From a virus, in IMG/VR virus record IMGVR_UViG_3300045988_159064, positions 1 to 42,765 of that record: DNA of 42,765 bases; one strand, 5' to 3'. Made by a program: the position numbers and the translations under genes. Below are positions 1 to 42,765 of the stretch, in pieces. The notes under the pieces were generated by a model, which did no database searches, was not told the origin of the DNA, and was given only the letters and a program-made list of their open reading frames with translations. Numbering within the stretch: position 1 is the stretch's first letter; each line of letters starts with the position of its first letter.

Positions 1-119
1 GGATTTTCACAATCACCGAGGAAAAGAACGGCTGGGGCAAATTGAAATCCGGCGCCGGCTGGATTTGCCTGACGGTCAGCTGTGTAAAGAGGGTATAAAA
101 AGCAGCAGCAAAAAAAAAC
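1..119. repeat. Terminal direct repeat, copy 1 (identical to 42647-42765). Circular-assembly overlap carrying the last 98 nt of the endolysin CDS.
   Basis: Bases 1-119 match 42647-42765 base for base. The TAA at 96-98 corresponds to the endolysin stop at 42742-42744. Confidence 0.95.
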
Positions 120-1834: not shown

Positions 1835-3175
1835 ATGAAAAAACAGTTATATGATTTCCAGCGGCAGGCGCTGGATAAAATACAAGACCGCGACAATGCG
1901 GCGCTATTTTGGCAGATGGGCGCCGGAAAGACGGTTTCCGCAATAGAATTAACAGAACGAGAGACATGGAACACGCCAACGTTGATTTGCCTGGTATTAA
2001 AGTCCACCGTCAGCCAGTGGATAGACGAGTTGAAAGAGCAGACAGACCGGCAGGTGTTCAATGGCTATAAGAAGAGCAAAAAGGACGGAATACGGGCTTT
2101 TATAGATGCGACCGGTAGAAAAGCCTTGGTAATTGGTTACGACGCGTATAAAGCCAAATCAGCGGCTGAATTGAGGCAATATATCAATGATAACGCCGAG
2201 CAGGTTACGATGACGTGCGATGAGTCTAGTCTGATAGGACCTATGACCAGCGAAAGGACAAAGGCGGTTATGAAGACAAAAGTAAGACACCGGCTGCTAT
2301 TGTCCGGAACCCCGGCAACTGGGGGTAAACTCGAAGCAATTATTCCGACGGCCTGCATGCTGGGCTGGCATATTACGAAAGAGCAGTTTTTGCAGCAGTT
2401 CTGTCACATCTACGAGTGGACAGACCCGACCCGCCCCTGGATGACGATACCGATTATACAGGGCTATAAAAACATAGATAAATTGCGTGAGGGATTACAG
2501 GAGCACGGCGGCTCTTTCATAACTATGGAGGAGGCCGGGGTGCAGTTACCGGAGACAACCGAGCAGATAATCTCCATACAGCCCCCGCCGGAATACAGGA
2601 AATTTATGAAAAATGGCATTGTTAAAATTGGTGACACCGAGATTGTTGGCGAAAACAATCTGACAAAAATGCTCTATGCAAGGCAGATTTGCTCTGTATA
2701 TAACCCGGCCAAAGCTGCGGCTCTGGAAGAGTTATTGCAGCAGGCGGGCGACGAGCCCGTGGTAATTTTCTATAACTGGACGGCGGAGCTTTACGTTCTG
2801 CAAAAAATCAGAGAGAAATTGGGCCGCCCGATGTCAATAGTAAACGGGCAGAAAAAAGACCTTAAAGAGTATGAAAACGGAACACCAGGGACGGTTATTT
2901 TGTGCCAGTATCAGGCGGCCAGTATGGGGCTGAATCTACAAAAAAACGCGAGGATATGCGTTTTTTACAGCCAATGCCTCTCATACAGCGATTACGAGCA
3001 GGCGAAAGCAAGAATACACAGAATAGGGCAGAGTAGAAATTGCAATTTCTATAATCTCATATGCAGTGATAGCATTGAGGAGGACATCCTGGAGACGCTG
3101 GAACAGCGAAAAGATTACACCGAGCAGCTGTTTACAGAGAAACACGGCAGAAAGCGGGAGGTGAAGGCAGCATGA
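1835..3175 (+). CDS. SNF2-family (SF2) DNA helicase/translocase
   Basis: 446 aa with a GAGGAG RBS. Walker A QMGAGKT, DESS box, motif VI HRIGQ. Confidence 0.85.
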   Translation: MKKQLYDFQRQALDKIQDRDNAALFWQMGAGKTVSAIELTERETWNTPTLICLVLKSTVSQWIDELKEQTDRQVFNGYKKSKKDGIRAFIDATGRKALVIGYDAYKAKSAAELRQYINDNAEQVTMTCDESSLIGPMTSERTKAVMKTKVRHRLLLSGTPATGGKLEAIIPTACMLGWHITKEQFLQQFCHIYEWTDPTRPWMTIPIIQGYKNIDKLREGLQEHGGSFITMEEAGVQLPETTEQIISIQPPPEYRKFMKNGIVKIGDTEIVGENNLTKMLYARQICSVYNPAKAAALEELLQQAGDEPVVIFYNWTAELYVLQKIREKLGRPMSIVNGQKKDLKEYENGTPGTVILCQYQAASMGLNLQKNARICVFYSQCLSYSDYEQAKARIHRIGQSRNCNFYNLICSDSIEEDILETLEQRKDYTEQLFTEKHGRKREVKAA

Positions 3176-4454: not shown

Positions 4455-4461
4455 TAAAAAA

Positions 4462-4495
4462 TTTTCATTTTAAAAATTATTCTGCATATTAATAG
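4462..4495 (+). promoter_or_regulatory. Phage-type promoter element P2 (TTTTCA-17-CATATTAATA)
   Basis: Motif family member with no ORF downstream. Confidence 0.55.
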
Positions 4496-4581
4496 TGTAA
4501 GAAAAAAATGGAATAAACGCCCCGGCGTATAGTATAGAAGATGAAGAGATAAAAGAGCCCGGAGAGCGAAGCAAAAAGCGT

Positions 4582-4620
4582 TTTTTATTCTATAAATTTT
4601 TCAGCATATTATATATGTAA
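4582..4620 (+). promoter_or_regulatory. Phage-type promoter element P3 (TTTTTA-17-CATATTATATATGTAA)
   Basis: Motif family member with no ORF downstream. Confidence 0.55.
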
Positions 4621-4657
4621 AGACAAGGAAGAGTAAAAACAAAGTCTTTCAAAAAAA

Positions 4658-4692
4658 TTTTCATTTTCTAAATTATTTGGCATATTAATAAT
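4658..4692 (+). promoter_or_regulatory. Phage-type promoter element P4 (TTTTCA-17-CATATTAATA)
   Basis: Motif family member; duplicate of P2, about 199 bp downstream of it. Confidence 0.55.
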
Positions 4693-4761
4693 GAGAGATA
4701 AACGCAGGGGAATATAGATGAGATGAATAGAGGAGCCCCGGGAGCGATACAAAAAAAATGA

Positions 4762-4797
4762 TTTTTATTTCTCAAAAAATTTAGCATATTAATAACA
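4762..4797 (+). promoter_or_regulatory. Phage-type promoter element P5 (TTTTTA-17-CATATTAATA)
   Basis: Motif family member; duplicate of P3, about 180 bp downstream of it. Confidence 0.55.
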
Positions 4798-4894: not shown

Positions 4895-6121
4895 ATGAAA
4901 ACAAATAAATTTAAAGAAATGATTATGGCTGAGGCCGAAACAATAAAGAACGAAGAGGTAAGAAACCTTACTATCAGAGTAAGAACACAGCGAGCAATCG
5001 ACGCGCTGCACGACCAATGGAACCGTGTATGTATGCATATTGATAATGTGCCAGCAGAAGAAATGTCTGAAGAGTATGCTGAGTTTATTAGAAAAATAAA
5101 CTATGCTGACAGATTAATATCTAATGCATCAGGACAGGGAGAATTAACAGATATTAATTACGGAAGAAATATCTATGAAAAACAGGTAAGAACACATAGA
5201 GACAGTGAAGATATTCATATTCAGCAATTTATTAGCGAATGGGACAGAACAGAAAACGAGATAGCAGAAATCAGGGCAGAAATTCAGGAGCTGAGAGATA
5301 TGTGGAAAGCCGCAGGCGGTTATGATTTATGGGAACAGCACGATGAAGACGAATTAGCATTATCAGAAATCGACCTGGATACAGAGGAAACAATAGATGT
5401 GGAAACAGAAAGACAAGAGAGAGAATCACTAGAAAGAGGATGGGCTGAGTTAATTGAAATGGAAAAGGCAATGAATGAAGCAAAAGCACCAAGCAAAAAA
5501 GACGAGATGATTGAAACAGTTGAAAATACATATGACATGGTAGGAGCAGCAAGAACGATTAAGAACTACACAGGAATCAGTGATAATGAGATTGACTCTG
5601 ATTACGTTGAGTACATTGTAAGACATCTATTCAGCGACGATGAGACGCAGGAGCAGCGAAACAAAGAGAGACTAATGGAGTACTACGAAAAGCAGCCGGA
5701 AAAATTCTTTGATGATTTTGATTCAGAGGATTTAGTAATCCGTATGGCAGAGGACCTGGCTAAAATTCAGTATGATGATTTAATCAAACGATACGGTTTC
5801 AAGGAGCTGAGTTATGCCCCATATAACCCAGAATTTGCAGCAAGTGAGGCAAATTACAACCGGGAAATGTCATTAGAGCTGGCGGGTACAAAGTGCGAAA
5901 TTGTTGAATCAATGCCAGAATTAGAGGATGTGGTAAAGTCCAAAATAATCTCTGACAACAATTTTTGCAAATTAATCAATATGTATAAAAAATGTGGTTT
6001 TAAAGACTGGAAAGATAAGGTGATATTGCCGAACTATGTAGCACATGACGCAGTAAGATGTCACGACCAGGATTGGCTAGTAGATTATGTCATTAACAAA
6101 TCAGCAATCAGAGGTGAATAA
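4895..6121 (+). CDS. Highly acidic hypothetical protein (408 aa)
   Basis: AGGAGG RBS. Long Asp/Glu-rich central region. No catalytic motif recognised. Confidence 0.75.
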   Translation: MKTNKFKEMIMAEAETIKNEEVRNLTIRVRTQRAIDALHDQWNRVCMHIDNVPAEEMSEEYAEFIRKINYADRLISNASGQGELTDINYGRNIYEKQVRTHRDSEDIHIQQFISEWDRTENEIAEIRAEIQELRDMWKAAGGYDLWEQHDEDELALSEIDLDTEETIDVETERQERESLERGWAELIEMEKAMNEAKAPSKKDEMIETVENTYDMVGAARTIKNYTGISDNEIDSDYVEYIVRHLFSDDETQEQRNKERLMEYYEKQPEKFFDDFDSEDLVIRMAEDLAKIQYDDLIKRYGFKELSYAPYNPEFAASEANYNREMSLELAGTKCEIVESMPELEDVVKSKIISDNNFCKLINMYKKCGFKDWKDKVILPNYVAHDAVRCHDQDWLVDYVINKSAIRGE

Positions 6122-6122
6122 G

Positions 6123-7433
6123 ATGAAAAAATATTTAGAAAAGAATGTATATGAAGCAACAATGGAGCGAATAAAATTCATCTTTGATGAGTTTGACAAC
6201 GTGCTCGTAAGTTTCTCCGGAGGCAAAGACTCAACCGTATGTATGGATATGTGTTATGACTACGCTAAACAACACGATATGCTAGATAAATTGGCGATGT
6301 ATCATTTAGATTATGAGGCTCAGTATCAGATGACGACAGATTATGTAACAGACGCATTCAACAATTATCCAGAGATACGAAAATGGTGGTTATGTCTACC
6401 GATAGAGGCACAATGTGCGTGCAGGATGGACGGGGCGTTTTGGACGCCCTGGGCTCCTGAAAATAAAGATATTTGGGTTAGAGATATGCCAGATAATAAA
6501 TATGTTATCAACGAAAACAATGCACCATTTGAGGTAAAACGGGGATTGACAGACAATGAAATGCAAAGAACATTTACAGATTGGTTTATTAGTCAATACG
6601 GAAGAACAGCAATCGTCGTTGGGATTAGATGTCAGGAACCATACGACCGGTTACAGATAATCACGAGTACAGACCATAATTTGAGATACAAAGGTAAAAA
6701 ATGGACAATTACGTCTCATATTAAAAATACAACTCACGGAATCAGTACCTTTGCATACATAATCTACGATTGGCAGGTTGAGGATGTCTGGACATATTTT
6801 GGAATAACAGGATATAGATACAACAGATTATATGACCTGTTTTATCAGGCAGGATGCAAATTAGGAGATATGAGGGTTGCCTCACCATTCAATGATTGCG
6901 GTATACACAATCTAAAATTATATAAAGTTATAGACCCGAAGAACTGGGCTAAGATGGTCGGGAGAGTCAACGGGGCAAATTTCGCCGGACTATACGGAGG
7001 AACGACAGCGATGGGCTGGAGAAAAATAATCTTGCCGCCAGGACATACCTGGAAATCATATTGCTATTTCTTATTATCCACATTAGACGAGAAACTAAAA
7101 TCTCATTATGAAAGAATTCTTGCAACATCATTAAAATATTGGTGCGAAAAGGGCGGCTTTGTATGTGAGGATATTATGGATGAAGTGGAGGCTCTCGAGG
7201 CTGATTATGAAGATATGGGAACCAGCACTAGATACAATAATCAAAGAATATTAAAGTTCACACAATACCCCGACGATTGCAAAACAAAATCATTCGCAAA
7301 GCTGCCATCATACAAAAGAATGTGTATCTGTATTATGAAAAACGATTACTGCTGTACATATATGGGATTCGGAAAAACAAAAGAAGCAATAGAAAAAAGA
7401 AAAATCACAATGGAAAAATATAAAAATTTATAA
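6123..7433 (+). CDS. PAPS-reductase-family PP-loop protein, IbrA-like
   Basis: PP-loop motif VSFSGGKDS near the N-terminus, plus a long C-terminal extension. Start moved to the ATG at 6123 (GAGGTG RBS) from the track start at 6087. Confidence 0.8.
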   Translation: MKKYLEKNVYEATMERIKFIFDEFDNVLVSFSGGKDSTVCMDMCYDYAKQHDMLDKLAMYHLDYEAQYQMTTDYVTDAFNNYPEIRKWWLCLPIEAQCACRMDGAFWTPWAPENKDIWVRDMPDNKYVINENNAPFEVKRGLTDNEMQRTFTDWFISQYGRTAIVVGIRCQEPYDRLQIITSTDHNLRYKGKKWTITSHIKNTTHGISTFAYIIYDWQVEDVWTYFGITGYRYNRLYDLFYQAGCKLGDMRVASPFNDCGIHNLKLYKVIDPKNWAKMVGRVNGANFAGLYGGTTAMGWRKIILPPGHTWKSYCYFLLSTLDEKLKSHYERILATSLKYWCEKGGFVCEDIMDEVEALEADYEDMGTSTRYNNQRILKFTQYPDDCKTKSFAKLPSYKRMCICIMKNDYCCTYMGFGKTKEAIEKRKITMEKYKNL

Positions 7434-7446
7434 GAGGAAATGACTT

Positions 7447-7998
7447 ATGTTTAAATCACCAGTTTACAATATTAAAGCAATACCAATAGAAAAAATACAG
7501 GCGAACGCATACAACCCGAACAGTGTAGCACCGCCAGAGATGAAATTATTATATAAATCAATTTTAGAGGATGGATATACAATGCCGATTGTATGCTACC
7601 ACATACCAGAGACAGATACATATGAAATTGTTGACGGGTATCACCGATATCTCACTATGAAACAGCACAAAGATATCTACGACCGCGAGGGCGGTTGTCT
7701 GCCAGTATCTGTTATAGATAAGCCGTTATCAGACAGGATGGCTAGCACAATCAGACATAACAGAGCCAGAGGAACTCACAGTATAGAGCTAATGACAAAT
7801 ATAGTTGCGGAGTTAGTTGAAAGCGGGATGTCTGACGCGTGGATTATGAAAAATATAGGCATGGATGCAGAGGAGCTTTTAAGATTAAAACAAATAAGCG
7901 GGCTTGCAGCATTATTTAAAGACAAAGATTTTTCACACGCATGGACAGCAGGAGGTGATGAGGATGACAAAAACGGGGATGGCGATAATTGCCAATAG
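7447..7998 (+). CDS. ParB/Srx-fold N-terminal domain protein, IbrB-like
   Basis: Motifs NAYNPNSV and IVDGYHRY (DGxHR), immediately downstream of the PAPS-reductase-like gene. Confidence 0.8.
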   Translation: MFKSPVYNIKAIPIEKIQANAYNPNSVAPPEMKLLYKSILEDGYTMPIVCYHIPETDTYEIVDGYHRYLTMKQHKDIYDREGGCLPVSVIDKPLSDRMASTIRHNRARGTHSIELMTNIVAELVESGMSDAWIMKNIGMDAEELLRLKQISGLAALFKDKDFSHAWTAGGDEDDKNGDGDNCQ

Positions 7999-12794: not shown

Positions 12795-13715
12795 TTGAGC
12801 AATGCAAATCTAAACGCCGCGAAGAAGGCGAAAAACGATGAATTTTATACAATGTATGAGGACATAGAGGCAGAACTGCAACACTACCCCGGAGCATTTC
12901 AGGGCAAGGTGGTTTATTGTAATTGTGATAATCCGGAATGGAGCAATTTTTGGAGATATTTTCACGAGCATTTTGAGGAGTTGGGGCTGAAGAGATTAGT
13001 TTCAACTCACTACGAGAAAGACGTAGAGAGGAACGGCACCCCGTATAAGATGGAGTATGAAGGCGGAGACGATGCGAATATTGCAGCAGGCGTAAAAACG
13101 CCGCTGGAGGGCGATGGAGATTTTGCGAGTGAGGAATGCCTTGCAGTTTTAGAGGGAGCCGACATTGTGGTGACGAATCCACCGTTTTCCAAATTTCGAC
13201 GGTTCGTACAGACACTTTTTGATAATGAGAAGAGGTTCATAATAATAGGAAGTAGACAAGCTTCAACCTTAAAGAACGTTTTTCAACATATAAAAAAAGA
13301 ACAAGTAAGTCCCGGCTATACACACCCGAAAGCATTTTTGACGATTGATAAAAAAAGCCAGAAGGTTAGCACGGGATGGTGGGCTTGGATAGACGATTCA
13401 GGGCAAGGACATGTATTGCCGCGAAACCCTTTAAAATTATCAGAAAGATACAGCCCTGATAAATATAAAAGATATGATAACGTTGATGCGATTAATGTAG
13501 ACAGAGTAAAAGATATTCCGATTGACTACACAGGCATTATGGGAGTGCCATGTTCATTTATTGAGAATTATGACCCGAAACAATTTGAGCTGATAGGACA
13601 CACGCATGATATGAATGGAGACGGAGGGCAAGGCGTCCCCGGAGGTGGGTTGTATATCAACAGTAAGAAAATATACACGAGGATATTTATAAGAAGCCGT
13701 CACCCCAAGCCGTGA
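12795..13715 (+). CDS. N6-adenine DNA methyltransferase, EcoRI-methylase-like family
   Basis: TTG start with a GTGAGG RBS. N-terminal AKKAKNDEFYT...GKVVYCNCD and catalytic VVTNPPFS (NPPF). Confidence 0.85.
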   Translation: MSNANLNAAKKAKNDEFYTMYEDIEAELQHYPGAFQGKVVYCNCDNPEWSNFWRYFHEHFEELGLKRLVSTHYEKDVERNGTPYKMEYEGGDDANIAAGVKTPLEGDGDFASEECLAVLEGADIVVTNPPFSKFRRFVQTLFDNEKRFIIIGSRQASTLKNVFQHIKKEQVSPGYTHPKAFLTIDKKSQKVSTGWWAWIDDSGQGHVLPRNPLKLSERYSPDKYKRYDNVDAINVDRVKDIPIDYTGIMGVPCSFIENYDPKQFELIGHTHDMNGDGGQGVPGGGLYINSKKIYTRIFIRSRHPKP

Positions 13716-14723: not shown

Positions 14724-15287
14724 ATGAGAGTGGCATATGTTAGAGTGTCAACGGCAGAACAGAACGAAGAGCGACAGCTGGAAGCACTGGAGCGGTTCAA
14801 CATAGAGCGCTGGTATACCGAAAAGGTCAGCGGTAAGAACGCAAACCGGCCAAAGCTGCAGGAGATGTTGGATTTTGTCAGAGAAGGCGACATTGTATAT
14901 GTTCACGATTTAAGCCGCCTTGCCCGTAGTACAAAAGACCTACTTTCTATAGTAGAACAACTGGACGCAAAGGGGGTACAGCTGGTAAGCAATAAAGAGA
15001 GCATTGATACGCAAACCGCCGCCGGAAAATTAATGCTGACTATGATTGGAGCGATTGCCGAATTTGAGAGGCAGAACCTGTTAGAGAGGCAGCGCGAGGG
15101 CATAGAGATTGCCAAGCGCGCGGGGAAATACCGCGGCGGGCATACGAAAGAGATTAATAAAGACGAATGGCAAAAAAATCTCTTCTTATATAAAACCCGT
15201 GAAATAAATAAAAGGCAGTTCGCCGAACGTCTACATATTTCCCGCCCGACGCTGGACAGGCTGCTGAAAAAGGAGGCCTCACAATGA
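14724..15287 (+). CDS. Small serine recombinase (resolvase/invertase family)
   Basis: N-terminus MRVAYVRVSTAEQNEERQ (catalytic Ser), 187 aa, C-terminal HTH QFAERLHISRPTLDRLL. Confidence 0.92.
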   Translation: MRVAYVRVSTAEQNEERQLEALERFNIERWYTEKVSGKNANRPKLQEMLDFVREGDIVYVHDLSRLARSTKDLLSIVEQLDAKGVQLVSNKESIDTQTAAGKLMLTMIGAIAEFERQNLLERQREGIEIAKRAGKYRGGHTKEINKDEWQKNLFLYKTREINKRQFAERLHISRPTLDRLLKKEASQ

Positions 15288-15526
15288 TAATCAACATTGA
15301 AAAAATAAGAGAAAAAAGACGCTTAAAAGAGCTGGCGACGGCATTAGACCTCACCCCGGAGGAAACAGCAATGATTTCCGAACGCTGCCGGGAGATGCAG
15401 GAAGAATTAAAGGAGCGAGCCGGCCGCGAGGATTACCCGTTCAACGTAGAGCTGCCGGATGGGACGATTGCGGCAGACCGTGACGAGGTTGAAGAGTGGT
15501 ACGCGAAGAACGGCGGCCGAATTTAA
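15284..15526 (+). CDS. Hypothetical protein (80 aa)
   Basis: ATGA overlap with the recombinase stop. Confidence 0.6.
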   Translation: MIINIEKIREKRRLKELATALDLTPEETAMISERCREMQEELKERAGREDYPFNVELPDGTIAADRDEVEEWYAKNGGRI

Positions 15527-15618
15527 AGGGCGCTCTGCCCGTATAAACTAACGCCCCGGACAAATTGAGGCCAGGTTTTTCTTCCTTTCCTTTCTTTGTT
15601 ACCTGGCCGCGGGGCGCT

Positions 15619-15656
15619 GGTTTATGCGGGCAAGTTTCCTGCATATTATATGTAGG
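15619..15656 (+). promoter_or_regulatory. Phage-type promoter element P9 (GGTTTA-17-CATATTATATGTAGG)
   Basis: The core is conserved. The upstream A/T block is missing. Confidence 0.45.
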
Positions 15657-15758
15657 CGGGAACAAATAAAAAATACATATTCCTTTCTTGAAACAACCCG
15701 CCTGTTGTTGTAGTTTTCTTTGACGAATTGCCCCGGTGAAAGCCGGGGTGATTTTTTT
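15655..15758 (+). ncRNA. Candidate sRNA of about 100 nt (P9 to terminator)
   Basis: No ORF. A 7-bp stem AGGCGGG/CCCGCCT closes a 36-nt A/U-rich loop. A U-rich linker follows, then the terminator CCCCGG-TGAAAG-CCGGGG plus T7 (15731-15758). Confidence 0.4.
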
Positions 15759-15767
15759 GCAAAAAGT

Positions 15768-15803
15768 GTTACACTTTCCGAATTTTTCAGCATATTATAT
15801 ATG
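15768..15803 (+). promoter_or_regulatory. Phage-type promoter element P10 (GTTACA-17-CATATTATATATGAG)
   Basis: Motif family member. The -35 region contains AAAAAGTGTTACAC, which resembles the iteron variant AAAAAGTGTACAC. Confidence 0.55.
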
Positions 15804-15873
15804 AGCCCGAACGAGGGCTGAATATAATTTCATGACGTTCTCCTGAGGCGCTCGGGCGAAGCCCGGCGCCTTT
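15803..15873 (+). ncRNA. Candidate sRNA of about 70 nt (P10 to GC hairpin)
   Basis: No ORF. Hairpin AGCCC-GAACGA-GGGCT, then an 11-bp GC stem (15846-15871) followed only by TTT and an A-run. Confidence 0.3.
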
Positions 15874-15884
15874 AAAAAAAGTGA

Positions 15885-15924
15885 TTTTTATTTTTTGAAA
15901 GATTTGTCATATTATATATGTAAG
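15885..15924 (+). promoter_or_regulatory. Phage-type promoter element P11 (TTTTTA-17-CATATTATATATGTAAG)
   Basis: Motif family member. Confidence 0.55.
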
Positions 15925-16218
15925 CATAAATGCTTATATGTAAGGGAGCGGCGTAATTACTACCATACGACAGACACCACCGCCCCGTTACATAGGCAGC
16001 AGGAGCAACACGGACGGCGACACATAGCAAGACACAAAAGCAAGATATGCAAAAAAACATATGCAAAAAAAACAAAGAAAAGAAATTTTCCTGCTGCCGC
16101 ACCTTTTTTCATATTTATTAAGCGCGGGAAGCATCTCCCGCGTGCGAGATAATCCCGCAAATCTTCCTCTATTTATTATATAAAGCCCTGCAGGTTCACT
16201 CCCTGCGGGGTGTTTTTT
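15920..16218 (+). ncRNA. Candidate structured non-coding RNA of about 300 nt (P11 to terminator)
   Basis: No credible ORF. AU hairpin at the 5' end (15915-15942). Long-range 9-bp stem GGCAGCAGG (15995) / CCTGCTGCC (16090). Hairpin at 16122-16143. Terminator CCCTGCAGG/CCTGCGGGG plus T-run at 16186-16218. Confidence 0.3.
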
Positions 16219-16347
16219 ATGTAAGCCAAAGCCGGCCGTACACCAAGGCCGTAAGCCGGCCGTGAACCCAGCTGCCAGAGGCAGCCGGGTATCCCGCATA
16301 CTAAAAATGCGGCGGAAAAAAGGACACAAAAAACGCCGCCAAAAAAA

Positions 16348-16383
16348 TTTTTATTTTTTTAATTATTCTGCATATTAAATATG
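16348..16383 (+). promoter_or_regulatory. Phage-type promoter element P12 (TTTTTA-17-CATATTAAATATGAGG)
   Basis: Motif family member. Precedes the helicase gene and is followed by hairpin GAGGATAA/TTGTCCTC. Confidence 0.6.
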
Positions 16384-16458
16384 AGGATAAAGAAACGCTT
16401 GTCCTCACGACGACAGAATAGAAAAAAAATGAGATATATGGAACAGGAGGAAAAAGCT

Positions 16459-18843
16459 ATGAAAGACATAGATTATCTAAATAAAATCAGTGAAATATCT
16501 GACAAAATAATAAAAATGGCGGAGCTTGGTAAAGATACGACCGCCCTGGAGCAGATGCTGCAGCAGATGATGGCAGCAGCAATGCAGCATCCGGAACCGG
16601 AAAAGGAGCCGGAAAAGGAGCCGATGGCATTACCCCCGGTAGAAAACATTGACGGGCTGCAGGTGATTACACTATCGAAAATGCCGAAAACGATGAGGGA
16701 TTGTTTTGAACGCGGTGATATCAGCCTTGTAACTACGAAAGAGCAATTTTACGAGGACGAGCTGTACGAGGCAGCCTGCAGGGTTGTGAGAGAGACAGAC
16801 AGAAATAAAATTAAATATATGCTGGAACAAAAGGCAAAAGAGCTTGGCGGAACGGCGCTCTGCAAGATGTTCACTCAGAGTTACGTGGCCAAAAAGAAAG
16901 AAATAAAAAAGAAACGAGAAGAAGAAGAAAGAAAGTTGGCAGAGGCGCTCAAGGAGCGGCAGGCAGCAGAGGCAGAGGAGAAGCGGAGAGCTGGCAACAA
17001 GACCAAGTTCACGAACATGCCCGAGTGGTGCACCGGCAATAAATACGTCGGTGAAGAATGGATTACCAATAACGACGAAGGCGTTTACAAGCTGGAAGAT
17101 TGTGGAAAGACGGTAAAACGAACCGAGGCCTGCGGCCGCCCTGTAGCTATAAATAGACTGCTGGAGCCAATAGATGAATCAGGCTGGGACGGCATAGAGC
17201 GAGTTGAGATTGTATTTGAAAGCGAAAGAGGCTGGAAGAGAAAAGTTGTAGAAAGAGAGACGCTCTTGAATAAAAATAAGGCGATTGCTCTTACAAATGA
17301 CGGTGTTGATATTACATCAGACCGGGCCGGCGCTTTTACAGGCTATATGTCCTCTATGCTGAAAGAGTCCTCTATAAGAGGGGCAATTCCGAGTAGGAAA
17401 TCTTCAAGAAAGATGGCTTTATATAAAGACGGACAAATACTTTTACCATACAGAGACCCGGAGTTTTATTTTGAAAAGAAAGCATCTATGCCAAACCTGG
17501 TAAATGCGCTACAGGCACACGGGGAGAGCGAGAAAATGGAAGAAAACCGCGATGCATGGTTTAAAGAGTTCAAGAAGATACGAGCAGAAAAGAACGGAAT
17601 GTTCAACTTCCTCACCGCATCTTCATTATGCGCACCGATTATTGGAATGATTGGGAACATTGACGGTTTTGTATGTAATGTTGTAGGAGTTACAGAATGC
17701 GGCAAGTCAGTCGCCGAGAGTGTTACAGCGACAATATGGGGCAGCTTCAAGACTTCTGATGGTTTTGTTATAGGGGCAAAAAATACATCAAATGCATTTG
17801 AGACATATGCGGATGTTCTGAATTGCCTGCCACTGACAATTGATGATTATAACAAACTGAAAGAAAAGGAAAAAGATGCATTTAAACAAATCATATATGA
17901 GATTGCGAACGGCATAGGAAAAGGAAGAGCCACGAAGGACATGGGACTGAGAGCAATGGCCTCTTATTCATTAAATCTGATAGTTACATCAGAAGAACCT
18001 TTGAGAGAAAGGGCCGGCGGCGGCGCTACAAACCGTCTGCTGACATATATGGCAGACAGTAAATGCCCTTGGACACCAGACAGAATCACCGAAATGATGA
18101 ACTTTTTTAGCACTAATTACGGGCACGCCGGAGTTGAGTACATAGAGATTTTAAACAATCTTGGACGCGGAAAGGTGCAAGACATGATTAAGACACACCG
18201 TGACGAGTTACTAGAGGCAGCAAAAGGTCAGAAAAAAACAATGAAACAGATAAACGCGATGGCGGTTCTGCTTACAGCAGATGAGATTGCAGCGAATATG
18301 CTTTTTAAGGATAAAATCAAAATCACCACCGAACAGGCGGTTGATATGCTTGAGAGCGAAGACGTGGTTCAGGCAGAGGCGCAGGCTTATGAGAAAATTA
18401 TAGATAAAATTTTCAGCAACAAACAGCACTTCCAGGGTTTGGTTGAGTGCGATAAATTAACCGGTGACCTGTGGGGCAAATTTGTCAGAGAGGACAAATA
18501 TGAGGACTACGTAGAAGTAGAGGAAGAAATAAAGACAGGAGAAAAAGACGAAACCGGAAAAGAAATTGTAAAAACAGAAAAAAGACAGGTCAAACCAACA
18601 ACGGCGGCAATGTTTAAATTTAAGCTACAGGAGCTGGCGGCAGAGGTCGGGGTTAGTTACGAAATGTTCATCGAATACCTCAGACGAAAAAAATTGTTAT
18701 ATACAGATGAAGGCAGAGATACAAAAAAAGTAATAATAAAGAGGACTGATGGAAAGAAGGGCCAGATTAGGCAGAGAATGGTAAAGTTTAGATTGCCGCA
18801 ACAGGACAATGTTCCGTTTTGCGAGGAGGATGACGAAGATTAA
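16459..18843 (+). CDS. Replicative P-loop NTPase / SF3-type helicase with a DUF927-like central domain (probable origin-binding replication protein)
   Basis: AGGAGG 8 nt before the ATG at 16459; the track start at 16381 lies inside the promoter. Walker A GVTECGKSV and Walker B LPLTIDDY. The DUF927-like assignment is from memory of the family pattern. Confidence 0.75.
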   Translation: MKDIDYLNKISEISDKIIKMAELGKDTTALEQMLQQMMAAAMQHPEPEKEPEKEPMALPPVENIDGLQVITLSKMPKTMRDCFERGDISLVTTKEQFYEDELYEAACRVVRETDRNKIKYMLEQKAKELGGTALCKMFTQSYVAKKKEIKKKREEEERKLAEALKERQAAEAEEKRRAGNKTKFTNMPEWCTGNKYVGEEWITNNDEGVYKLEDCGKTVKRTEACGRPVAINRLLEPIDESGWDGIERVEIVFESERGWKRKVVERETLLNKNKAIALTNDGVDITSDRAGAFTGYMSSMLKESSIRGAIPSRKSSRKMALYKDGQILLPYRDPEFYFEKKASMPNLVNALQAHGESEKMEENRDAWFKEFKKIRAEKNGMFNFLTASSLCAPIIGMIGNIDGFVCNVVGVTECGKSVAESVTATIWGSFKTSDGFVIGAKNTSNAFETYADVLNCLPLTIDDYNKLKEKEKDAFKQIIYEIANGIGKGRATKDMGLRAMASYSLNLIVTSEEPLRERAGGGATNRLLTYMADSKCPWTPDRITEMMNFFSTNYGHAGVEYIEILNNLGRGKVQDMIKTHRDELLEAAKGQKKTMKQINAMAVLLTADEIAANMLFKDKIKITTEQAVDMLESEDVVQAEAQAYEKIIDKIFSNKQHFQGLVECDKLTGDLWGKFVREDKYEDYVEVEEEIKTGEKDETGKEIVKTEKRQVKPTTAAMFKFKLQELAAEVGVSYEMFIEYLRRKKLLYTDEGRDTKKVIIKRTDGKKGQIRQRMVKFRLPQQDNVPFCEEDDED

Positions 18844-18849
18844 AAAAAA

Positions 18850-18875
18850 GGGACGCGAAAGCGCCCCTTTTTTTT
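18850..18875. terminator. Terminator after the helicase gene (A-run / hairpin / T-run, potentially bidirectional)
   Basis: GGGACGC-GAAA-GCGCCCC flanked by A8 and T8. Confidence 0.75.
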
Positions 18876-19345
18876 AATGGGGCAGAATACAAGATGCCCC
18901 GTTTTTTGCGGAGCAAAAGGCAGATGGCGCCCCGCCCTTGGAGCAGAAATTGCGGACGGCAGGGCGGAAAATACGGCACGGGGCGGCGTTTTTGCGGCAA
19001 AATTTGGAAATATTTACCAAAAGATACACATTGAAAAAAAGAAAAATTGGGCATATCGCCAGTGGTGCCCCGATGCCCCGCCCCGTCCAGTAAAAATGTT
19101 ATATATATATAGAAAATAAAAAAAGAAAAAAATATTTTTTTTTCTTTTTATTTCTCTATATAGGGTTATAAAATGCTGGGGCAGTTGGGGCAGTCGTTGT
19201 GGATATAGAATAAATATAATAAAATATACTATATATAGTATATAATATATATAAATATACAATATATTGTATATAAATAACTCTTTTATACAAAATACTC
19301 TGCCCCGAGATGTAGGGGCAGTGCTGGGGCGATTGGGGCTGTGGC
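18876..19345. other. Candidate replication origin: AT-only palindromic core flanked by GGGGCAG/CTGCCCC repeats
   Basis: Imperfect AT palindrome at 19111-19155. Perfect 18-bp palindromes TATACTATATATAGTATA (19225-19242) and TATACAATATATTGTATA (19256-19273). Tandem TGGGGCAGT x2 (19177-19193). GGGGC(A/G/T) or its complement at about 18879, 18895, 19067-19085, 19299, 19314, 19325 and 19334. Confidence 0.5.
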
Positions 19346-19638
19346 TATATGAAAGATATTGGTTACCAGTAATGTTATTGGCTACCGGTAGGTTGAGATA
19401 TTGCCCGTATAAAAGAAAAAATCTGCCGGCCGGAAGTTTGTTGGCGGAGGCGTTTCTTTTTTTCAGCCGGAAAGAGTGTTAGGTGTTGGCCGATGCAGTA
19501 ACGGCAGCCTCATACTTCTTTTTATACTGGCACCATCATTACCGGCAGCCATAACGTATATTCAAGGACGGCGGCGAAGCCGCCGGCCGGCCGATTTTTT
19601 GCGGATTTCTACACCACCAAAACGCAAGCTGCGAGCGG

Positions 19639-19667
19639 TTGGCTGCATACTTTCTATATGCTATAAT
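19639..19667 (+). promoter_or_regulatory. Host-type extended -10 promoter (TTGGCT-17-TGcTATAAT) with an iteron core TGCATAC in the spacer
   Basis: -35 at 19639-19644, TGC at 19659-19661, -10 at 19662-19667, TGCATAC at 19644-19650. Confidence 0.65.
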
Positions 19668-19697
19668 CTGCATATATACAGAGGAGGTGTACATATT

Positions 19698-20417
19698 ATG
19701 AGTGACGCATTACACGAGCACGCGAAGATGTTGGCAAGAAATTTATTGAGATTGCAGGTATGCACTATTGGAGAGATTGCCGAGACGCTGGAACTAGAAC
19801 CCCCGGAGGTACAAGAGCTAGCTGTTGAGGTCTATGATGAGCGGGCGGAGCAGCTGACGGCGCTGCGGCAAATTATGAATGATATAGGCGAGAAACGCGC
19901 GGGGCGGCAGCAACAAGAGGCCTTATTGTTTGATGCGATTGGTATTCTGAATCAGCTTTTGCATAGGAGAGAGCCCGGGCGCGGCGAGATTGCCGATATC
20001 AGAAACTGGATACATAATATGGCCGACCACGACCTGACGCTTTACCTTGATAAACTATATGCGGGCGGAAATGACAACGAGATATTGATTCACGGAGGGG
20101 CTTTTCTTGATGGCGTGTATGCACTTTTTATGCGTACACACTACGACGACCTGCGGCGAAATGATGATGGATTTGTTGAGCCTGACACCACCGCCGCCCC
20201 GCCCGCGCCGGATGCCGCGGCCGAGGCTTACGCGCGGGATGAAGCGCGCGATGATGCTTTCCTTGACGGTTATGACCACGGCCACCGAGACGCCAAAGAA
20301 GAGATTGCATCACGACTGCTGCAGCAGAGCCGGCTGCCTTTCCCGTCCATTGCCGGCTATACCGGGCTGACAGATGAAGAGGTGAGGACGCTTGCAGCGC
20401 GAGTTCTGAAACGGTGA
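19698..20417 (+). CDS. Putative DNA-binding protein with HTH-like motifs at both termini (239 aa)
   Basis: GAGGAGG RBS. N-terminal LLRLQVCTIGEIAETLELEPPEVQELA and C-terminal LLQQSRLPFPSIAGYTGLTDEEVRTLA resemble each other. The track start at 19476 was rejected. Confidence 0.7.
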   Translation: MSDALHEHAKMLARNLLRLQVCTIGEIAETLELEPPEVQELAVEVYDERAEQLTALRQIMNDIGEKRAGRQQQEALLFDAIGILNQLLHRREPGRGEIADIRNWIHNMADHDLTLYLDKLYAGGNDNEILIHGGAFLDGVYALFMRTHYDDLRRNDDGFVEPDTTAAPPAPDAAAEAYARDEARDDAFLDGYDHGHRDAKEEIASRLLQQSRLPFPSIAGYTGLTDEEVRTLAARVLKR

Positions 20418-20425
20418 AAATACGA

Positions 20426-21088
20426 GGTGCATACTTTTTCCCCTTCATATTTCAGGGTGCATACTTTATGTGTGCACCTTTTTTCATACCCCGGCGCGCC
20501 GTCATAATATGCATACCCAAGCCAGCCCCCGCCGCCTGCTGCGGCATAAAATGCATACACTACCCGGACACCCACTCCGCCCGCCGGCTGGCTATACCAG
20601 CCGCCGGGCTTCGCTTTTCGCACCATAAAGTGCATACACTAGGCGGAACGCTTTTCTTCCATAATGTGCATACATAAACCGCCCCTTCTTTTCTGCATTT
20701 TTTTTCTTCTTTCTTAAAAAAGTGCATACACTAGCCGGACACCAAAGGCAAAGCCGCAGCGGGCAAAAAGTGTGCATACTAGGCAGCCCCGTTTTGTTTG
20801 CAAAAAGTATGCATACAAGGCAGCCCCGGCTTTGCGGTTGATTGCGAAAAAGTGCATACACTAGCCGGACACCAGGAACAGGCCCGCAGTCGCCAAAAAG
20901 TGCATACACTAGGCCGCCCGCGTTTTGCTTTATTTTGTATGCATACTACCCGGACACAATTCGGCAAAAAGTGCATACACTAGCCGGACACCCTCCGGCA
21001 GTTCTGCGGGCAAAAAGTATGCATACAAGGCTGCCCCCAAACCGTTTCAGCTGCTGCCGGCATAAAGTGTACACCCAAGCCAGCCCCC
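20426..21088 (+). repeat. Iteron array: 15 same-orientation copies of (A)nGTGCATAC plus a GC-rich tail; consensus AAAAAGTGCATACACTAGCCGGACACC
   Basis: Core positions are about 20427, 20458, 20510, 20552, 20631, 20667, 20723, 20773, 20810, 20853, 20901, 20940, 20972, 21020 and 21067. Three perfect 27-mers lie at 20717-20743, 20847-20873 and 20966-20992. Confidence 0.9.
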
Positions 21089-21197
21089 AGGCTGGCAGAC
21101 GCCGCCACCACTCTCCGGCCGCCTGAACCCTGCTGAGCGGCTAAGCCGTAGATTTCGGCCCGCCAGCCCTTCTTTTTTGCCTTTTTTTCATTTTTTC

Positions 21198-21231
21198 TTT
21201 TGGTTTTGTAGGCCGCGGAGCGGCCGTCTGC
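21198..21231 (+). repeat. 34-bp repeat copy 1 (TTTTGGTTTTGTAGGCCGCGGAGCGGCCGTCTGC) containing the palindrome GGCCGC-GGA-GCGGCC
   Basis: 33/34 identity with 21507-21540. Preceded by a polypyrimidine tract. Confidence 0.85.
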
Positions 21232-21506
21232 CCCGTTTTTGCGGGCATACTTTACCAGCGGCAGCAGGTTTTGCCCCGGTTTAGGTACATACTCAAAGCG
21301 GGCAACGGTAAACCGCCGCACGCTTTTCGGTGGTTTTATTCTTCCCGCCAGGCCACGCGGCCGGACGCTGCCCGCCCGCACGGCCAGGCTCTCTTTATGC
21401 ATACTTTTTTGTATTTGTAGTACATCTTTTCTTTTCCTCTTTCTTTCCTTTTTCTTTTGTTTATTTATAGGTGCATACTTTTTTCGGCCTTTCTTTTAGC
21501 CTTCTT

Positions 21507-23492: not shown

Positions 23493-23963
23493 ATGGGAGC
23501 AAAAAAGCCAATGGAGCTGCATACAAGCCATCATACAAAAGCAGAAATCGCGGTGATGGAGGCCGAAACGGCAAACGCAACCTGCGACCGTAAATGCCTG
23601 TCAGGTACACCGCCAAGAGAGTTAATAGACGCGCGGGCAAAAGCCGAGTGGAGACGCATTGCCGGAATCTTGGAGCCAATGGAAATCATTGGTGACCTGG
23701 ACAAGGCGGCGCTGATTGGCTATTGCAACGCGTTTTCGCTGTATAGAAGAGCGACCGAAGAATTGGCGGCGGCGCCGTTGATATTAGAGACAGAAAGGGG
23801 CAGCGTTAAAAACCCTCTCATATCAGTTCAGGACACATATGCAAAGCAGATGAGGGATTTTGCTATGAAGGCCGGGTTGTCTGTTGATACACGGTTGAAG
23901 TATGCAGCTCTTAAAACGAAAAACGACACCGCGGAACTCGAGGATGAGTTCGGCGACATATAG
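23493..23963 (+). CDS. terS: Terminase small subunit (P27-like)
   Basis: GAGGAGG RBS, 156 aa, directly upstream of terL. Family pattern recognised by eye. Confidence 0.8.
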   Translation: MGAKKPMELHTSHHTKAEIAVMEAETANATCDRKCLSGTPPRELIDARAKAEWRRIAGILEPMEIIGDLDKAALIGYCNAFSLYRRATEELAAAPLILETERGSVKNPLISVQDTYAKQMRDFAMKAGLSVDTRLKYAALKTKNDTAELEDEFGDI

Positions 23964-42744: not shown

Positions 42745-42765
42745 AAAGCAGCAGCAAAAAAAAAC
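42647..42765. repeat. Terminal direct repeat, copy 2 (identical to 1-119)
   Basis: See copy 1. Confidence 0.95.

What the first reader, a model, noticed from the sequence alone, without database searches (positions are those of the whole stretch)
18876..19345. Ori-like element directly downstream of the helicase gene: AT-only palindromes bracketed by GGGGCAG repeats
Immediately after the terminator of the DUF927/P-loop helicase gene there is a block of about 200 bp that is almost pure A/T.

- **Palindromes:** it contains an imperfect 45-bp palindrome (19111-19155) and two related perfect 18-bp palindromes, TATACTATATATAGTATA (19225-19242) and TATACAATATATTGTATA (19256-19273).
- **Interrupting and flanking repeats:** the AT block is interrupted by a tandem TGGGGCAGT x2 (19177-19193). 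C-rich copies (TGCCCCG, GCCCCGCCCCG at 19060-19085) lie on its left. G-rich copies (AGGGGCAG, TGGGGCG, TGGGGCT at 19314-19340) lie on its right, so the flanks have inverted polarity.
- **Further palindromic sites:** two TTGG(T/C)TACC(A/G)GTA sites follow at 19350-19385.

Initiator-binding repeats flanking an AT-rich unwinding element, next to the gene for the initiator helicase, is the organisation known for SaPI rep-ori modules and several phage replicons.
Basis: partly seen in the sequence, partly recalled or inferred. Interest (0 to 1): 0.62.

Follow-up and report, generated by a model that had tools for sequence, protein, structure and literature searches.

The report
Phage replication origin with iterons
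The repeat-flanked, AT-rich stretch just after the helicase gene of this gut-bacterial phage is very probably its replication origin, built like those of staphylococcal pathogenicity islands, so it is well supported but of a known kind.

Summary

**Statistics.** GGGGC/GCCCC occurs 14 times in 480 bp, against 0.93 expected. The AT block is the least stable DNA in the 42.7-kb phage genome.

**The helicase.** The adjacent gene (16459-18843) encodes a DUF927 helicase with a C-terminal winged helix. By profile and by predicted fold its nearest solved relatives are SaPIbov1 Rep (8TCH) and SCCmec Cch (5DGK). Both are self-loading initiator-helicases, and the SaPI origins lie directly 3' of rep.

**Comparative evidence.** Relatives from gut metagenomes and Blautia/Ruminococcus prophages keep one fixed scaffold: 3 inverted iterons, an AT palindrome, 2 iterons, a second AT block, then 1 inverted and 3 direct iterons. 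The repeat word changes with the helicase clade. Seven words occur in the ~800-aa clades, plus GGTTAC in distant homologues.

In mosaic genomes both flanks and the AT blocks stay homologous. Only the helicase core/C-terminus and the iteron segments are replaced.

**Verdict.** This is a SaPI-type rep-ori module in a complete temperate phage, a new member of a known kind. This scan has reported the same kind on other DNA many times.

The parts
16459..18843 (+). Initiator-helicase gene (794 aa). It has a DUF927 core, Walker A GKS at residues 415-417, and a C-terminal winged helix (Pfam HTH_56). The longer ORF starting at 16381 begins inside a promoter-like repeat and is probably not used.
   Evidence: Pfam DUF927 E 5.9e-27 and HTH_56 E 4.4e-8, both above their cut-offs. 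PHROG 8841 primase/helicase. Database homologues start at the equivalent of 16459. Profile hits to 8tch_A (1.4e-23) and 5dgk_A (5.3e-17). Foldseek top hits are 8TCH and 5DGK.
18839..18878 (.). Symmetric terminator-like hairpin (A8-stem-T8) that closes the helicase gene and bounds the origin on its left.
   Evidence: Inverted repeat I11, 94% complementary. The same element is present in relatives.
18879..18986 (.). Distal, looser iteron cluster: GGGGCAG 18879 (+), TGCCCCG 18895 (-), GCCCC 18929 (-), CGGGGCGG 18979 (+). It is an accessory part and is less conserved.
   Evidence: In L001 the corresponding stretch carries CTGGGCG/CGGGCG words instead. L006 has lost the first pair.
19066..19085 (-). 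Left iteron set: three copies of YGCCCCG, that is CGGGGCR read on the minus strand.
   Evidence: Three minus-strand copies occupy this position in every ~800-aa clade, each clade using its own word.
19090..19168 (.). AT block 1: the palindrome TATATAG-(A-rich) / (T-rich)-CTATATA, arms 19104-19131 and 19135-19162. It is the probable primary melting and loading site.
   Evidence: It is conserved across clades with different iterons (70-94% identity). It is recognisable even downstream of ~25%-identical homologues.
19177..19194 (+). Central iteron pair, TGGGGCAGT x2.
   Evidence: The pair is replaced by CTGGGCAG-CTGGGCGG in L001 and by each clade's own word elsewhere.
19201..19298 (.). AT block 2, the genome-wide minimum of G+C and of duplex stability. 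It holds two perfect 18-bp palindromes (19225-19242 and 19256-19273) whose centres are 31 bp apart.
   Evidence: Identity is 72-99% across loci whose helicases are only about 41% identical.
19300..19340 (.). Right iteron set: CTGCCCC (-, 19300-19306), then GGGGCAG (19315), GGGGCG (19326) and GGGGCT (19335) on the plus strand. The first two form an inverted pair with an 8-bp spacer.
   Evidence: The same 1-inverted-plus-3-direct layout, with clade-specific words, is found in relatives.
19357..19390 (+). Two TATTGGYTACCRGTA sites 19 bp apart, adjacent to the origin. They are not helicase-specific and their binder is unknown.
   Evidence: They are conserved in L001, L021 and L113, whose helicases and iterons differ.

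Best explanation
Window 18879-19345 is the vegetative replication origin of a complete temperate siphovirus-like phage of gut Lachnospiraceae. Relatives of this phage are prophages in Blautia.

**Proposed mechanism (inferred by analogy to SaPI Rep).**
- The gene immediately upstream encodes a self-loading initiator-helicase of the SaPIbov1 Rep / SCCmec Cch (DUF927, MCM-like) family.
- Hexamers dock through the beta-hairpin wing of their C-terminal winged helix onto the short iterons, YGGGGCR.
- The iterons are spaced 8-11 bp apart, apart from one overlapping pair in the left set (19074 and 19079, 5 bp apart), and lie in opposite orientation on the two sides of an AT palindrome.
- The AT-rich DNA melts, two hexamers load, and they move apart 3' to 5'. 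This starts bidirectional replication.

**What is shown here.**
- The anatomy and its statistical significance.
- The family of the helicase, by sequence profile and predicted fold.
- Conservation of the scaffold downstream of this helicase family.
- Concerted change of the iteron word with the helicase core and C-terminus.

**What is inferred.**
- Binding of the wing to the iterons.
- Melting at AT block 1 rather than AT block 2.
- Double-hexamer loading.
- Use of a host primase and polymerase.
For: **1. Anatomy.**
- There are 14 GGGGC/GCCCC words in 480 bp against 0.93 expected.
- Their orientations are inverted around the AT blocks.
- The AT block is the genome-wide stability minimum.

**2. 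Helicase family.**
- Pfam finds DUF927 and HTH_56.
- The profile hits 8tch_A at E 1.4e-23 and 5dgk_A at E 5.3e-17.
- The AlphaFold2 model has mean pLDDT 76.6.
- Its best PDB matches are SaPIbov1 Rep 8TCH (E 2e-18, TM 0.64 on the target) and Cch 5DGK (E 6e-16).

**3. Published architecture.** SaPI origins lie immediately 3' of rep. They hold 6-12 penta- or hexanucleotide iterons oppositely disposed around an AT-rich centre, and the Rep C-terminal winged helix binds them (PMC9371898; bioRxiv 10.64898/2026.10.17.759575; PMC7581432).

**4. Co-variation.**
- 19 loci from eight helicase clades keep the same scaffold but use GGGGCR, CTGGGC, TGGGCC, GTCGGAC, YTGGGAT, YTGGGAA or GGGGAG.
- The word-by-locus matrix is essentially block-diagonal, with only isolated single-copy off-diagonal hits and 1-2 copy cross-hits between the closely related TGGGAT and TGGGAA words.
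- The labels need the minimum possible 7 changes on the helicase tree.

**5. Mosaics.**
- L001 and L021 are homologous to the window on both sides: 15283-17130 at about 75% and 19094-21235 at about 82%.
- They differ in helicase residues from about 250 to the end, and in the iterons.
- Within the homologous right half, the iteron segments are the diverged islands. Central iterons are 24-33% identical, against 70-76% for the AT blocks.

**6. Reciprocal case.**
- L111 has a different downstream flank and a different N-terminal 200 residues (31-45% identity).
- It keeps the core at 66-84% and has the same GGGGCRG iterons.

**7. Wing residues.** Residues on the modelled beta-hairpin wing (strands 756-761 and 769-779) are constant within an iteron group and differ between groups:
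- GGGGCAG: DTKKV / R(Q/P)R(M/V)VKF.
- TGGGCAG: TTRKT / RPRLVNIK.
- TGGGAA/T: NQTK / ER.IKL.

**8. Generality.**
- In 71 distant (~25% identical, ~630 aa) homologues in Clostridia genomes, the 500 bp after the gene has the highest short-repeat count of all windows in 49.
- It has the lowest G+C in 57. About 6 would be expected by chance.
- The layout is the same.

**9. Persistence.** The block is present in all six further close relatives examined or listed.
Against: - There is no experimental evidence of binding, melting or replication for this element.
- GC skew shows no sign change at the site. Nearly all genes are on one strand, which dominates the skew.
- No primase gene was recognised nearby, unlike the pri-rep arrangement of SaPIs.
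- Co-variation among relatives can partly reflect inheritance of a linked cassette. The mosaic and reciprocal cases reduce this objection but do not abolish it.
- One distant clade (L029/L027, 29% identity) lacks the block downstream of its helicase.
Confidence: 0.85

Rival explanations
1. The repeats and palindromes are a transcriptional control region: operators for a phage regulator at the boundary between early replication genes and the next regulatory gene. On this reading the site is not where replication starts.
For: - The two perfect 18-bp palindromes look like operators for a dimeric protein. They are conserved irrespective of helicase type.
- The region lies between a terminator and a near-consensus promoter at 19639-19667.
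- A separate regulator-type repeat array lies 1.1 kb downstream (earlier finding e1-2908500).
Against: - The GGGGC-type words track the helicase core and C-terminus, not any neighbouring regulator. The flanking genes stay homologous while the words change.
- The same scaffold follows DUF927 helicase genes across Clostridia.
- This rival could still hold for the AT-block-2 palindromes alone, alongside an origin function.
Confidence: 0.06
2. The iteron words are passengers of a recombining helicase cassette, or a recombination hotspot at a module junction. They would then have no binding function, and the co-variation would reflect linkage only.
For: - Mosaic breakpoints fall at 17130 and at 19094-19102, inside or next to the element.
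- Relatives share labels by descent.
Against: - The central and right iteron sets lie inside the segment that stays homologous. Yet every copy is rewritten to the new word, while the intervening AT blocks are kept.
- Number, order and orientation of the copies are preserved across seven words.
- That pattern is not expected of neutral passengers.
Confidence: 0.04
3. The element is a partition (centromere-like) site or a packaging site, not an origin.
For: - Iterated short repeats around an AT-rich centre also occur in plasmid centromeres.
- The phage encodes a ParB_N-domain protein at 7447-7998.
Against: - The ParB_N protein sits 11 kb away, next to a PAPS-reductase/DUF3440 protein. From my own knowledge this is an IbrA/IbrB-type pair, not a ParAB system. 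No ParA was seen.
- The phage has a tyrosine integrase, and relatives are integrated prophages.
- The small terminase gene is 4 kb downstream.
- The repeats co-vary with the helicase.
Confidence: 0.03

Closest known systems
SaPIbov1 / SaPI2-type Rep-ori replicon of Staphylococcus aureus pathogenicity islands (Rep structure PDB 8TCH)
   Same: - The initiator is a self-loading, MCM-like DUF927 helicase with a C-terminal winged helix.
- The origin lies directly 3' of the gene.
- It has short iterons in opposite orientation around an AT-rich centre, with an inverted iteron pair on a flank.
- Iteron specificity varies between elements.
(PMC9371898; bioRxiv 10.64898/2026.10.17.759575.)
   Different: - The host element is a complete 42.7-kb temperate phage of Lachnospiraceae, not a satellite.
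- The helicase carries an extra, independently exchangeable N-terminal region of about 200 aa.
- Sequence identity to Rep in the structural alignment is only about 14%.
- No adjacent primase gene was recognised.
- A central iteron pair splits the AT region into two blocks, and the second block carries conserved perfect palindromes.
SCCmec Cch helicase (PDB 5DGK) and the Cch2 putative origin
   Same: - It shares the DUF927/MCM-like fold and the HTH_56 C-terminal domain.
- For Cch2, the C-terminal domain binds direct repeats in the intergenic region just after the gene (PMC7581432).
   Different: - SCCmec is a chromosomal cassette.
- I found no origin described for Cch itself in the papers I read.
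- The Cch2 origin has three AAGTG repeats rather than a two-sided scaffold of 9-14 copies.
Iteron origins of lambdoid phages and iteron plasmids (lambda O/ori-lambda, RepA-type plasmids)
   Same: Both have initiator-binding repeats next to an AT-rich unwinding element, with specificity that differs between related replicons (PMC4980987 for plasmids; lambda from my own knowledge).
   Different: - There the initiator is a separate protein that recruits the host helicase through a loader.
- In lambda the iterons lie inside the initiator gene.
- Here initiator and helicase are one polypeptide and the origin is intergenic.

Membership tests
SaPI-type Rep-ori replicon (SaPIbov1 Rep / Cch, DUF927) | The initiator is a helicase homologous to SaPIbov1 Rep / Cch. 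| tested here: met
   Pfam DUF927 E 5.9e-27. Profile against PDB sequences: 8tch_A 1.4e-23 and 5dgk_A 5.3e-17. Foldseek: 8TCH E 2e-18 and 5DGK E 6e-16.
SaPI-type Rep-ori replicon (SaPIbov1 Rep / Cch, DUF927) | A C-terminal winged-helix DNA-binding domain. | tested here: met
   Pfam HTH_56 (Cch HTH) scores 33.6 bits against a cut-off of 26.2. The AlphaFold2 model shows two helices (720-729 and 734-743) followed by a beta hairpin (756-761 and 769-779). This is in silico evidence only.
SaPI-type Rep-ori replicon (SaPIbov1 Rep / Cch, DUF927) | [quoted passage not shown] | tested here: met
   The helicase stop codon ends at 18843, and the first iteron is at 18879, directly after the terminator hairpin. 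The same position is used in relatives.
SaPI-type Rep-ori replicon (SaPIbov1 Rep / Cch, DUF927) | Six to twelve short (5-7 nt) iterons on both sides of an AT-rich region, in opposite orientation, with at least one inverted pair. | tested here: met
   The core has nine copies: 3 minus, 2 plus, then 1 minus and 3 plus. Four or five looser distal copies precede them. Inverted pairs lie at 19300/19315 and at 18879/18895. Variation: there are two AT blocks rather than one.
SaPI-type Rep-ori replicon (SaPIbov1 Rep / Cch, DUF927) | Rep binds its cognate iterons specifically. | not testable with these tools
   Only indirect support is available. The iteron word co-varies with the helicase core/C-terminus and with wing residues.
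SaPI-type Rep-ori replicon (SaPIbov1 Rep / Cch, DUF927) | rep plus ori supports autonomous replication. | not testable with these tools
   This needs a plasmid replication assay or marker-frequency analysis. The public-run depth check was unavailable.
SaPI-type Rep-ori replicon (SaPIbov1 Rep / Cch, DUF927) | A primase gene (pri) upstream of, or fused to, rep. | tested here: inconclusive
   No primase domain was found in the helicase or in the ten neighbouring ORFs by Pfam or PHROGs. Several of those ORFs have no hits at all, so a novel primase cannot be excluded.
Phage satellite (PICI / SaPI) as the host element | A small island that lacks its own structural and packaging genes and depends on a helper phage. 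| tested here: not met
   The record is a 42,765-bp virus genome rated 100% complete, with terminal repeats. It has an integrase, a small terminase and a long run of plus-strand ORFs up to 1,124 aa. It works like a SaPI replicon but is not a satellite.

The most novel reading that the evidence does not exclude
Gut Lachnospiraceae phages may share one rigid origin scaffold in which only the iteron word is rewritten. The rewriting would occur in concert with a few residues on the winged-helix beta-hairpin of the helicase.

This would give at least eight mutually orthogonal origin specificities. They could act as replicon incompatibility or anti-hijacking groups among co-resident prophages. They would also amount to a natural recognition code for the Cch/Rep winged helix.

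In addition, the helicase-independent TATAC-N8-GTATA palindromes in AT block 2 may bind a second conserved factor that gates origin firing.
Probability: 0.3. Interest if true: 0.6.

Novelty: new member of a known kind. Interest (0 to 1): 0.4.

Why it matters
- It locates the replication origin and initiator of a widespread, uncultured family of temperate gut Blautia/Lachnospiraceae phages. One close helicase variant is listed in 179 blocks of the sequence collection.
- The clade-by-clade series of iteron words in an otherwise fixed scaffold, paired with changes in the wing residues, is a ready-made set of natural specificity swaps. It could be used to test how SaPI Rep/Cch-type self-loading helicases read their origins.
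- The series could also supply orthogonal replicons for genetic tools in gut Firmicutes.
- The design itself is already known from SaPIs, and this scan has met it repeatedly.

Tried and rejected
- **Reference phage collection:** the helicase-plus-origin DNA found no match by distant blastn.
- **IMG/VR:** scans gave only one relative. Relatives had to come from metagenome and genome contigs and by exact-protein look-ups.
- **Rfam:** only chance-level hits on 15-22 kb.
- **GC skew:** positive throughout, with only a change of slope near 20.1 kb. It is uninformative because nearly all genes share one strand.
- **DnaA box:** TGTGGATAT at 19198-19206 is box-like, but it is TGGGGATAT in L006 and TGGGAATAT in L008. 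It was rejected as chance.
- **Small ORF:** some relatives have a 57-aa gene call in the distal-left part. The open frame shifts between the window and L114, and it is absent in L111 and L001. It was rejected as non-coding.
- **The 27-bp repeat array at 20426-21088 as the true origin:** it uses a different word (GTGCATAC...) and stays conserved in L001 despite a different helicase. Rejected.
- **Structured RNA in 19346-19700:** the predicted fold is strong, but only 1 of 91 pairs co-varies because the sequences are 90% identical. Unresolved.
- **N-terminal 200 residues as the specificity determinant:** rejected.
- **Single-sequence search of PDB sequences:** no hits. The profile search was needed.

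Full report
**What the window is.** The 42,765-bp window is a complete virus record rated 100% complete, with direct terminal repeats. The repeat is 119 bp long, a length that fits an assembly overlap of a circular or permuted genome.

Recognised genes are:
- a tyrosine integrase (269-1534);
- an SNF2 helicase (1835-3175);
- a PAPS-reductase/DUF3440 protein next to a ParB_N protein (6087-7998);
- an EcoRI-type methylase (12795-13715);
- a small serine recombinase (14724-15287);
- a small terminase (23493-23963).

A long run of plus-strand ORFs follows. Relatives of the helicase lie in human-gut metagenome contigs of 41-44 kb, and in genomes of Blautia glucerasea, Blautia schinkii and a Ruminococcus sp.. 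The element is therefore a temperate phage of gut Lachnospiraceae.

The full layout, left to right, is:
- a symmetric terminator-like hairpin at 18839-18878;
- a loose cluster of GGGGC-type words at 18879-18986;
- three minus-strand copies YGCCCCG at 19066-19085;
- AT block 1, with a palindrome whose arms are 19104-19131 and 19135-19162;
- TGGGGCAGT x2 at 19177-19194;
- AT block 2, with perfect 18-bp palindromes at 19225-19242 and 19256-19273, centres 31 bp apart;
- GGGGCAG, GGGGCG and GGGGCT at 19315-19340.

GGGGC/GCCCC occurs 14 times in 480 bp against 0.93 expected (P about 2e-12). The next densest window has 5. The AT block is the genome-wide minimum of G+C (12% over 100 bp). It is also the minimum of nearest-neighbour stability, at -92 kcal/mol per 100 bp against a mean of -136 (sd 8.9). 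AT block 1 folds as a hairpin at -15.1 kcal/mol, z = -6.7.

**The neighbouring gene.**
- The ORF 16381-18843 matches DUF927 (E 5.9e-27) and the Cch C-terminal HTH_56 domain (E 4.4e-8), both above their curated cut-offs.
- It also matches PHROG 8841, a primase/helicase family.
- Database homologues begin at the equivalent of 16459.
- The ATG at 16381 lies inside a promoter-like repeat. I therefore take 16459-18843 (794 aa) as the gene.
- A single-sequence search of PDB sequences found nothing.
- A profile of 14 homologues hit 8tch_A at 1.4e-23 and 5dgk_A at 5.3e-17.
- An AlphaFold2 model built on 29 homologues has mean pLDDT 76.6.
- Its best PDB matches are 8TCH, described as the SaPIbov1 initiation-of-replication protein with helicase activity (E 2e-18, target TM 0.64), and 5DGK, SCCmec Cch (E 6e-16). 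Other AAA+/SF3 proteins follow far behind.
- The model ends in two helices followed by a beta hairpin (strands 756-761 and 769-779), which is a winged helix.

**What is published about that family.**
- Cch contains DUF927 and is related to SaPIbov1 Rep (PMC7581432).
- SaPI Reps are self-loading initiator-helicases.
- Their origin lies immediately downstream of rep and holds 6-12 penta- or hexanucleotide iterons.
- The iterons sit on both sides of an AT-rich centre, with at least two on each side pointing in opposite directions.
- The C-terminal winged helix binds the iterons (PMC9371898).
- A 2026 preprint shows PriRep5 reading its iterons with the beta strands of the wing in the major groove. 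One C-terminal domain swings out to reach an inverted iteron (bioRxiv 10.64898/2026.10.17.759575).
- The window's element has all these features.

**Comparative test.** I collected loci through metagenome and genome scans and by exact-protein look-ups. In every ~800-aa clade with enough downstream sequence the scaffold is the same. It runs: three minus-strand repeats, the TATAG-A-run/T-run-CTATA palindrome, two tandem plus-strand repeats, a second block, then one minus and three plus repeats. The repeat word differs by clade:

| Loci | Helicase identity to window | Repeat word |
|---|---|---|
| window, L006, L008, L111 | 59-100% | GGGGCR |
| L001, L021, L113 | 41-44% | CTGGGCAG |
| L112 | 46% | TGGGCCA |
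| L012, L013, L028 | 42% | GTCGGACA |
| L016, L031 | 35% | YTGGGAT |
| L017, L018, L032, L033 | 33% | YTGGGAA |
| L025, L026 | 30% | TGGGGAG |

The word-by-locus count matrix is essentially block-diagonal. The off-diagonal entries are isolated single copies, plus 1-2 copies shared between the closely related TGGGAT and TGGGAA words. On a maximum-likelihood helicase tree the eight labels, GGTTAC of the distant outgroup included, need 7 changes, the minimum possible. The shuffled mean is 15.0, and none of 200 shuffles is as low.

**Is this more than linkage?** Three observations say so.

1. L001 and L021 are homologous to the window on both sides, at 15283-17130 (about 75%) and 19094-21235 (about 82%). 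The break covers only helicase residues from about 250 to the end, and the left iterons.
2. Inside the right-hand homologous segment, the diverged islands are exactly the iteron segments.
   - Central iterons are 24-33% identical and right iterons 56%.
   - AT block 1 is 70% identical, AT block 2 is 72-76%, and the downstream stretch is 73-78%.
   - Every copy reads TGCCCAG where the window reads TGCCCCG.
3. L111 is the reciprocal case.
   - Its downstream flank and its N-terminal 200 residues differ (31-45% identity).
   - Residues 227-676 are 66-84% identical, and the iteron is again GGGGCRG.

The N-terminal 200 residues are therefore not the specificity determinant. They are 65-96% identical in L001 and L113, which have a different iteron.

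Within the C-terminal winged helix, the residues on the two modelled wing strands are constant within an iteron group and differ between groups:
- GGGGCAG group: DTKKV and R(Q/P)R(M/V)VKF;
- TGGGCAG group: TTRKT and RPRLVNIK;
- TGGGAA/T groups: NQTK and ER.IKL.

This matches the PriRep5 mode of recognition, but it is inference.

**Generality.** Among 71 distant homologues (~630 aa, 23-29% identical) in Clostridia genomes, the 500 bp after the gene has the highest short-repeat count of all 500-bp windows of the locus in 49. It has the lowest G+C in 57. About 6 would be expected by chance. Their commonest word is GGTTAC/GGTAAC, and the layout is again inverted sets around a TATA-A-run/T-run-TATA palindrome. 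Close relatives all keep the block. One helicase variant, 89% identical, is listed in 179 blocks of the collection. One distant clade (L029, 29% identity) does not show the block.

**Mechanism proposed.** Helicase hexamers dock by their winged-helix wings on the left triple and on the central and right sets. Within a set the copies are mostly 8-11 bp apart, about one per helical turn. The exception is one overlapping pair in the left set (19074 and 19079, 5 bp apart).

AT block 1 is conserved family-wide and is flanked by inverted iterons. It is the likeliest first melting and loading site. Its A-run/T-run symmetry would give each outward-moving 3'-to-5' hexamer an A-rich tracking strand. That point is my own inference.

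AT block 2 is the least stable DNA in the genome. Its two perfect palindromes are conserved irrespective of helicase type and occur nowhere else in the genome. They may extend the bubble or bind a second factor. Priming is presumably done by a host enzyme, because no primase was recognised.

**Rivals.**
- *Pure transcriptional operator region.* This does not explain the co-variation with the helicase, though it may apply to the AT-block-2 palindromes.
- *Neutral passenger repeats.* These would not keep number, order and orientation across seven words.
- *Partition or packaging site.* The ParB_N protein is paired with an IbrA-like protein 11 kb away, no ParA was seen, the phage integrates, and the terminase gene is 4 kb away.
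- *The 27-bp repeat array at 20426-21088.* It uses another word and is conserved in L001 despite the different helicase, so it is not this helicase's origin. This agrees with earlier finding e1-2908500.

**Limits.**
- No experiment supports binding or firing.
- GC skew is uninformative.

**Novelty.** This is a SaPI-type rep-ori module in a complete temperate phage, not a satellite. It differs from the SaPI pattern in having an extra N-terminal helicase region and a two-block AT centre. It is a new member of a known kind.

This scan has already reported the same kind on other DNA many times: 132 notes in at least 127 genomes match the key words. These include gut Clostridia and Ruminococcus gnavus prophages. 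The added value here is the clean series of specificity swaps.

Noticed in passing
window 19346-19640: A roughly 300-bp non-coding block right after the origin is 90% identical across loci whose helicases are only 41-87% identical. It holds the two TATTGGYTACCRGTA sites and two further TAACGG/TTACCGG-CAGCC words (19496-19509 and 19537-19550). It also has long inverted repeats (GTATAAAAGAA/TTCTTTTTATAC, and 19416-19433 with 19583-19600) and a terminator-like hairpin at about 19565-19603. The predicted consensus fold is -88 kcal/mol, but only 1 of 91 pairs co-varies. Whether it is a structured RNA or a protein-binding region is unresolved.
   Followed up: partly
window 19361-19367 and 19380-19386: The two sites next to the origin contain GGTTACC and GGCTACC. 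GGTTAC/GGTAAC is the commonest iteron of the distant ~630-aa DUF927 helicases in Clostridia. They could be relic iterons or cross-talk sites. The word is not enriched genome-wide: 8 copies against 5.4 expected.
   Followed up: partly
window 16459-17130 (helicase residues 1-225 of the 794-aa protein): The N-terminal ~200 residues are exchanged independently of the rest of the helicase. In the model they form a low-confidence head followed by one 70-residue helix, 112-181. They have no Pfam match, and their function is unknown.
   Followed up: partly
window 16345-16385; also 4458-4495, 4580-4612, 4655-4692, 4755-4795, 15775-15802 and 15880-15920: There is a family of promoter-like repeats of the form ...TTTTCA(T)TTT..AAATTATTCTGCATATTAAT... 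One copy sits directly before the helicase gene and contains the ATG at 16381. This argues that translation starts at 16459.
   Followed up: partly
L012/L013/L028 at about 500-640 nt, and L016/L031 at about 380-540 nt, after the helicase stop: These clades carry a second cluster of their own iteron word 150-300 bp beyond the core origin. In the window the extra, looser cluster lies on the other side, at 18879-18986.
   Followed up: no
L029 and L027 (helicase 29% identical): There is no iteron/AT block after the helicase gene. A terminator is followed directly by another gene. The origin of this clade must be elsewhere or of another kind.
   Followed up: no
L053, L068 and L088 (distant homologues), within 300 nt after the helicase stop: A conserved box of about 25 bp (...CTAG.ATTTTATGCGGGTTTGAG-like) occurs twice in each origin. 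One copy lies left of the left iterons and one lies between the central and right iterons, where the window has AT block 2.
   Followed up: no
window 6087-7998: A PAPS-reductase/DUF3440 protein lies next to a ParB_N-domain protein. From my own knowledge this resembles an IbrA/IbrB-type pair, not a partition system.
   Followed up: no
window 1-119 and 42647-42765: There is an exact 119-bp direct terminal repeat. This length fits an assembler overlap of a circular or circularly permuted genome rather than a biological end.
   Followed up: no
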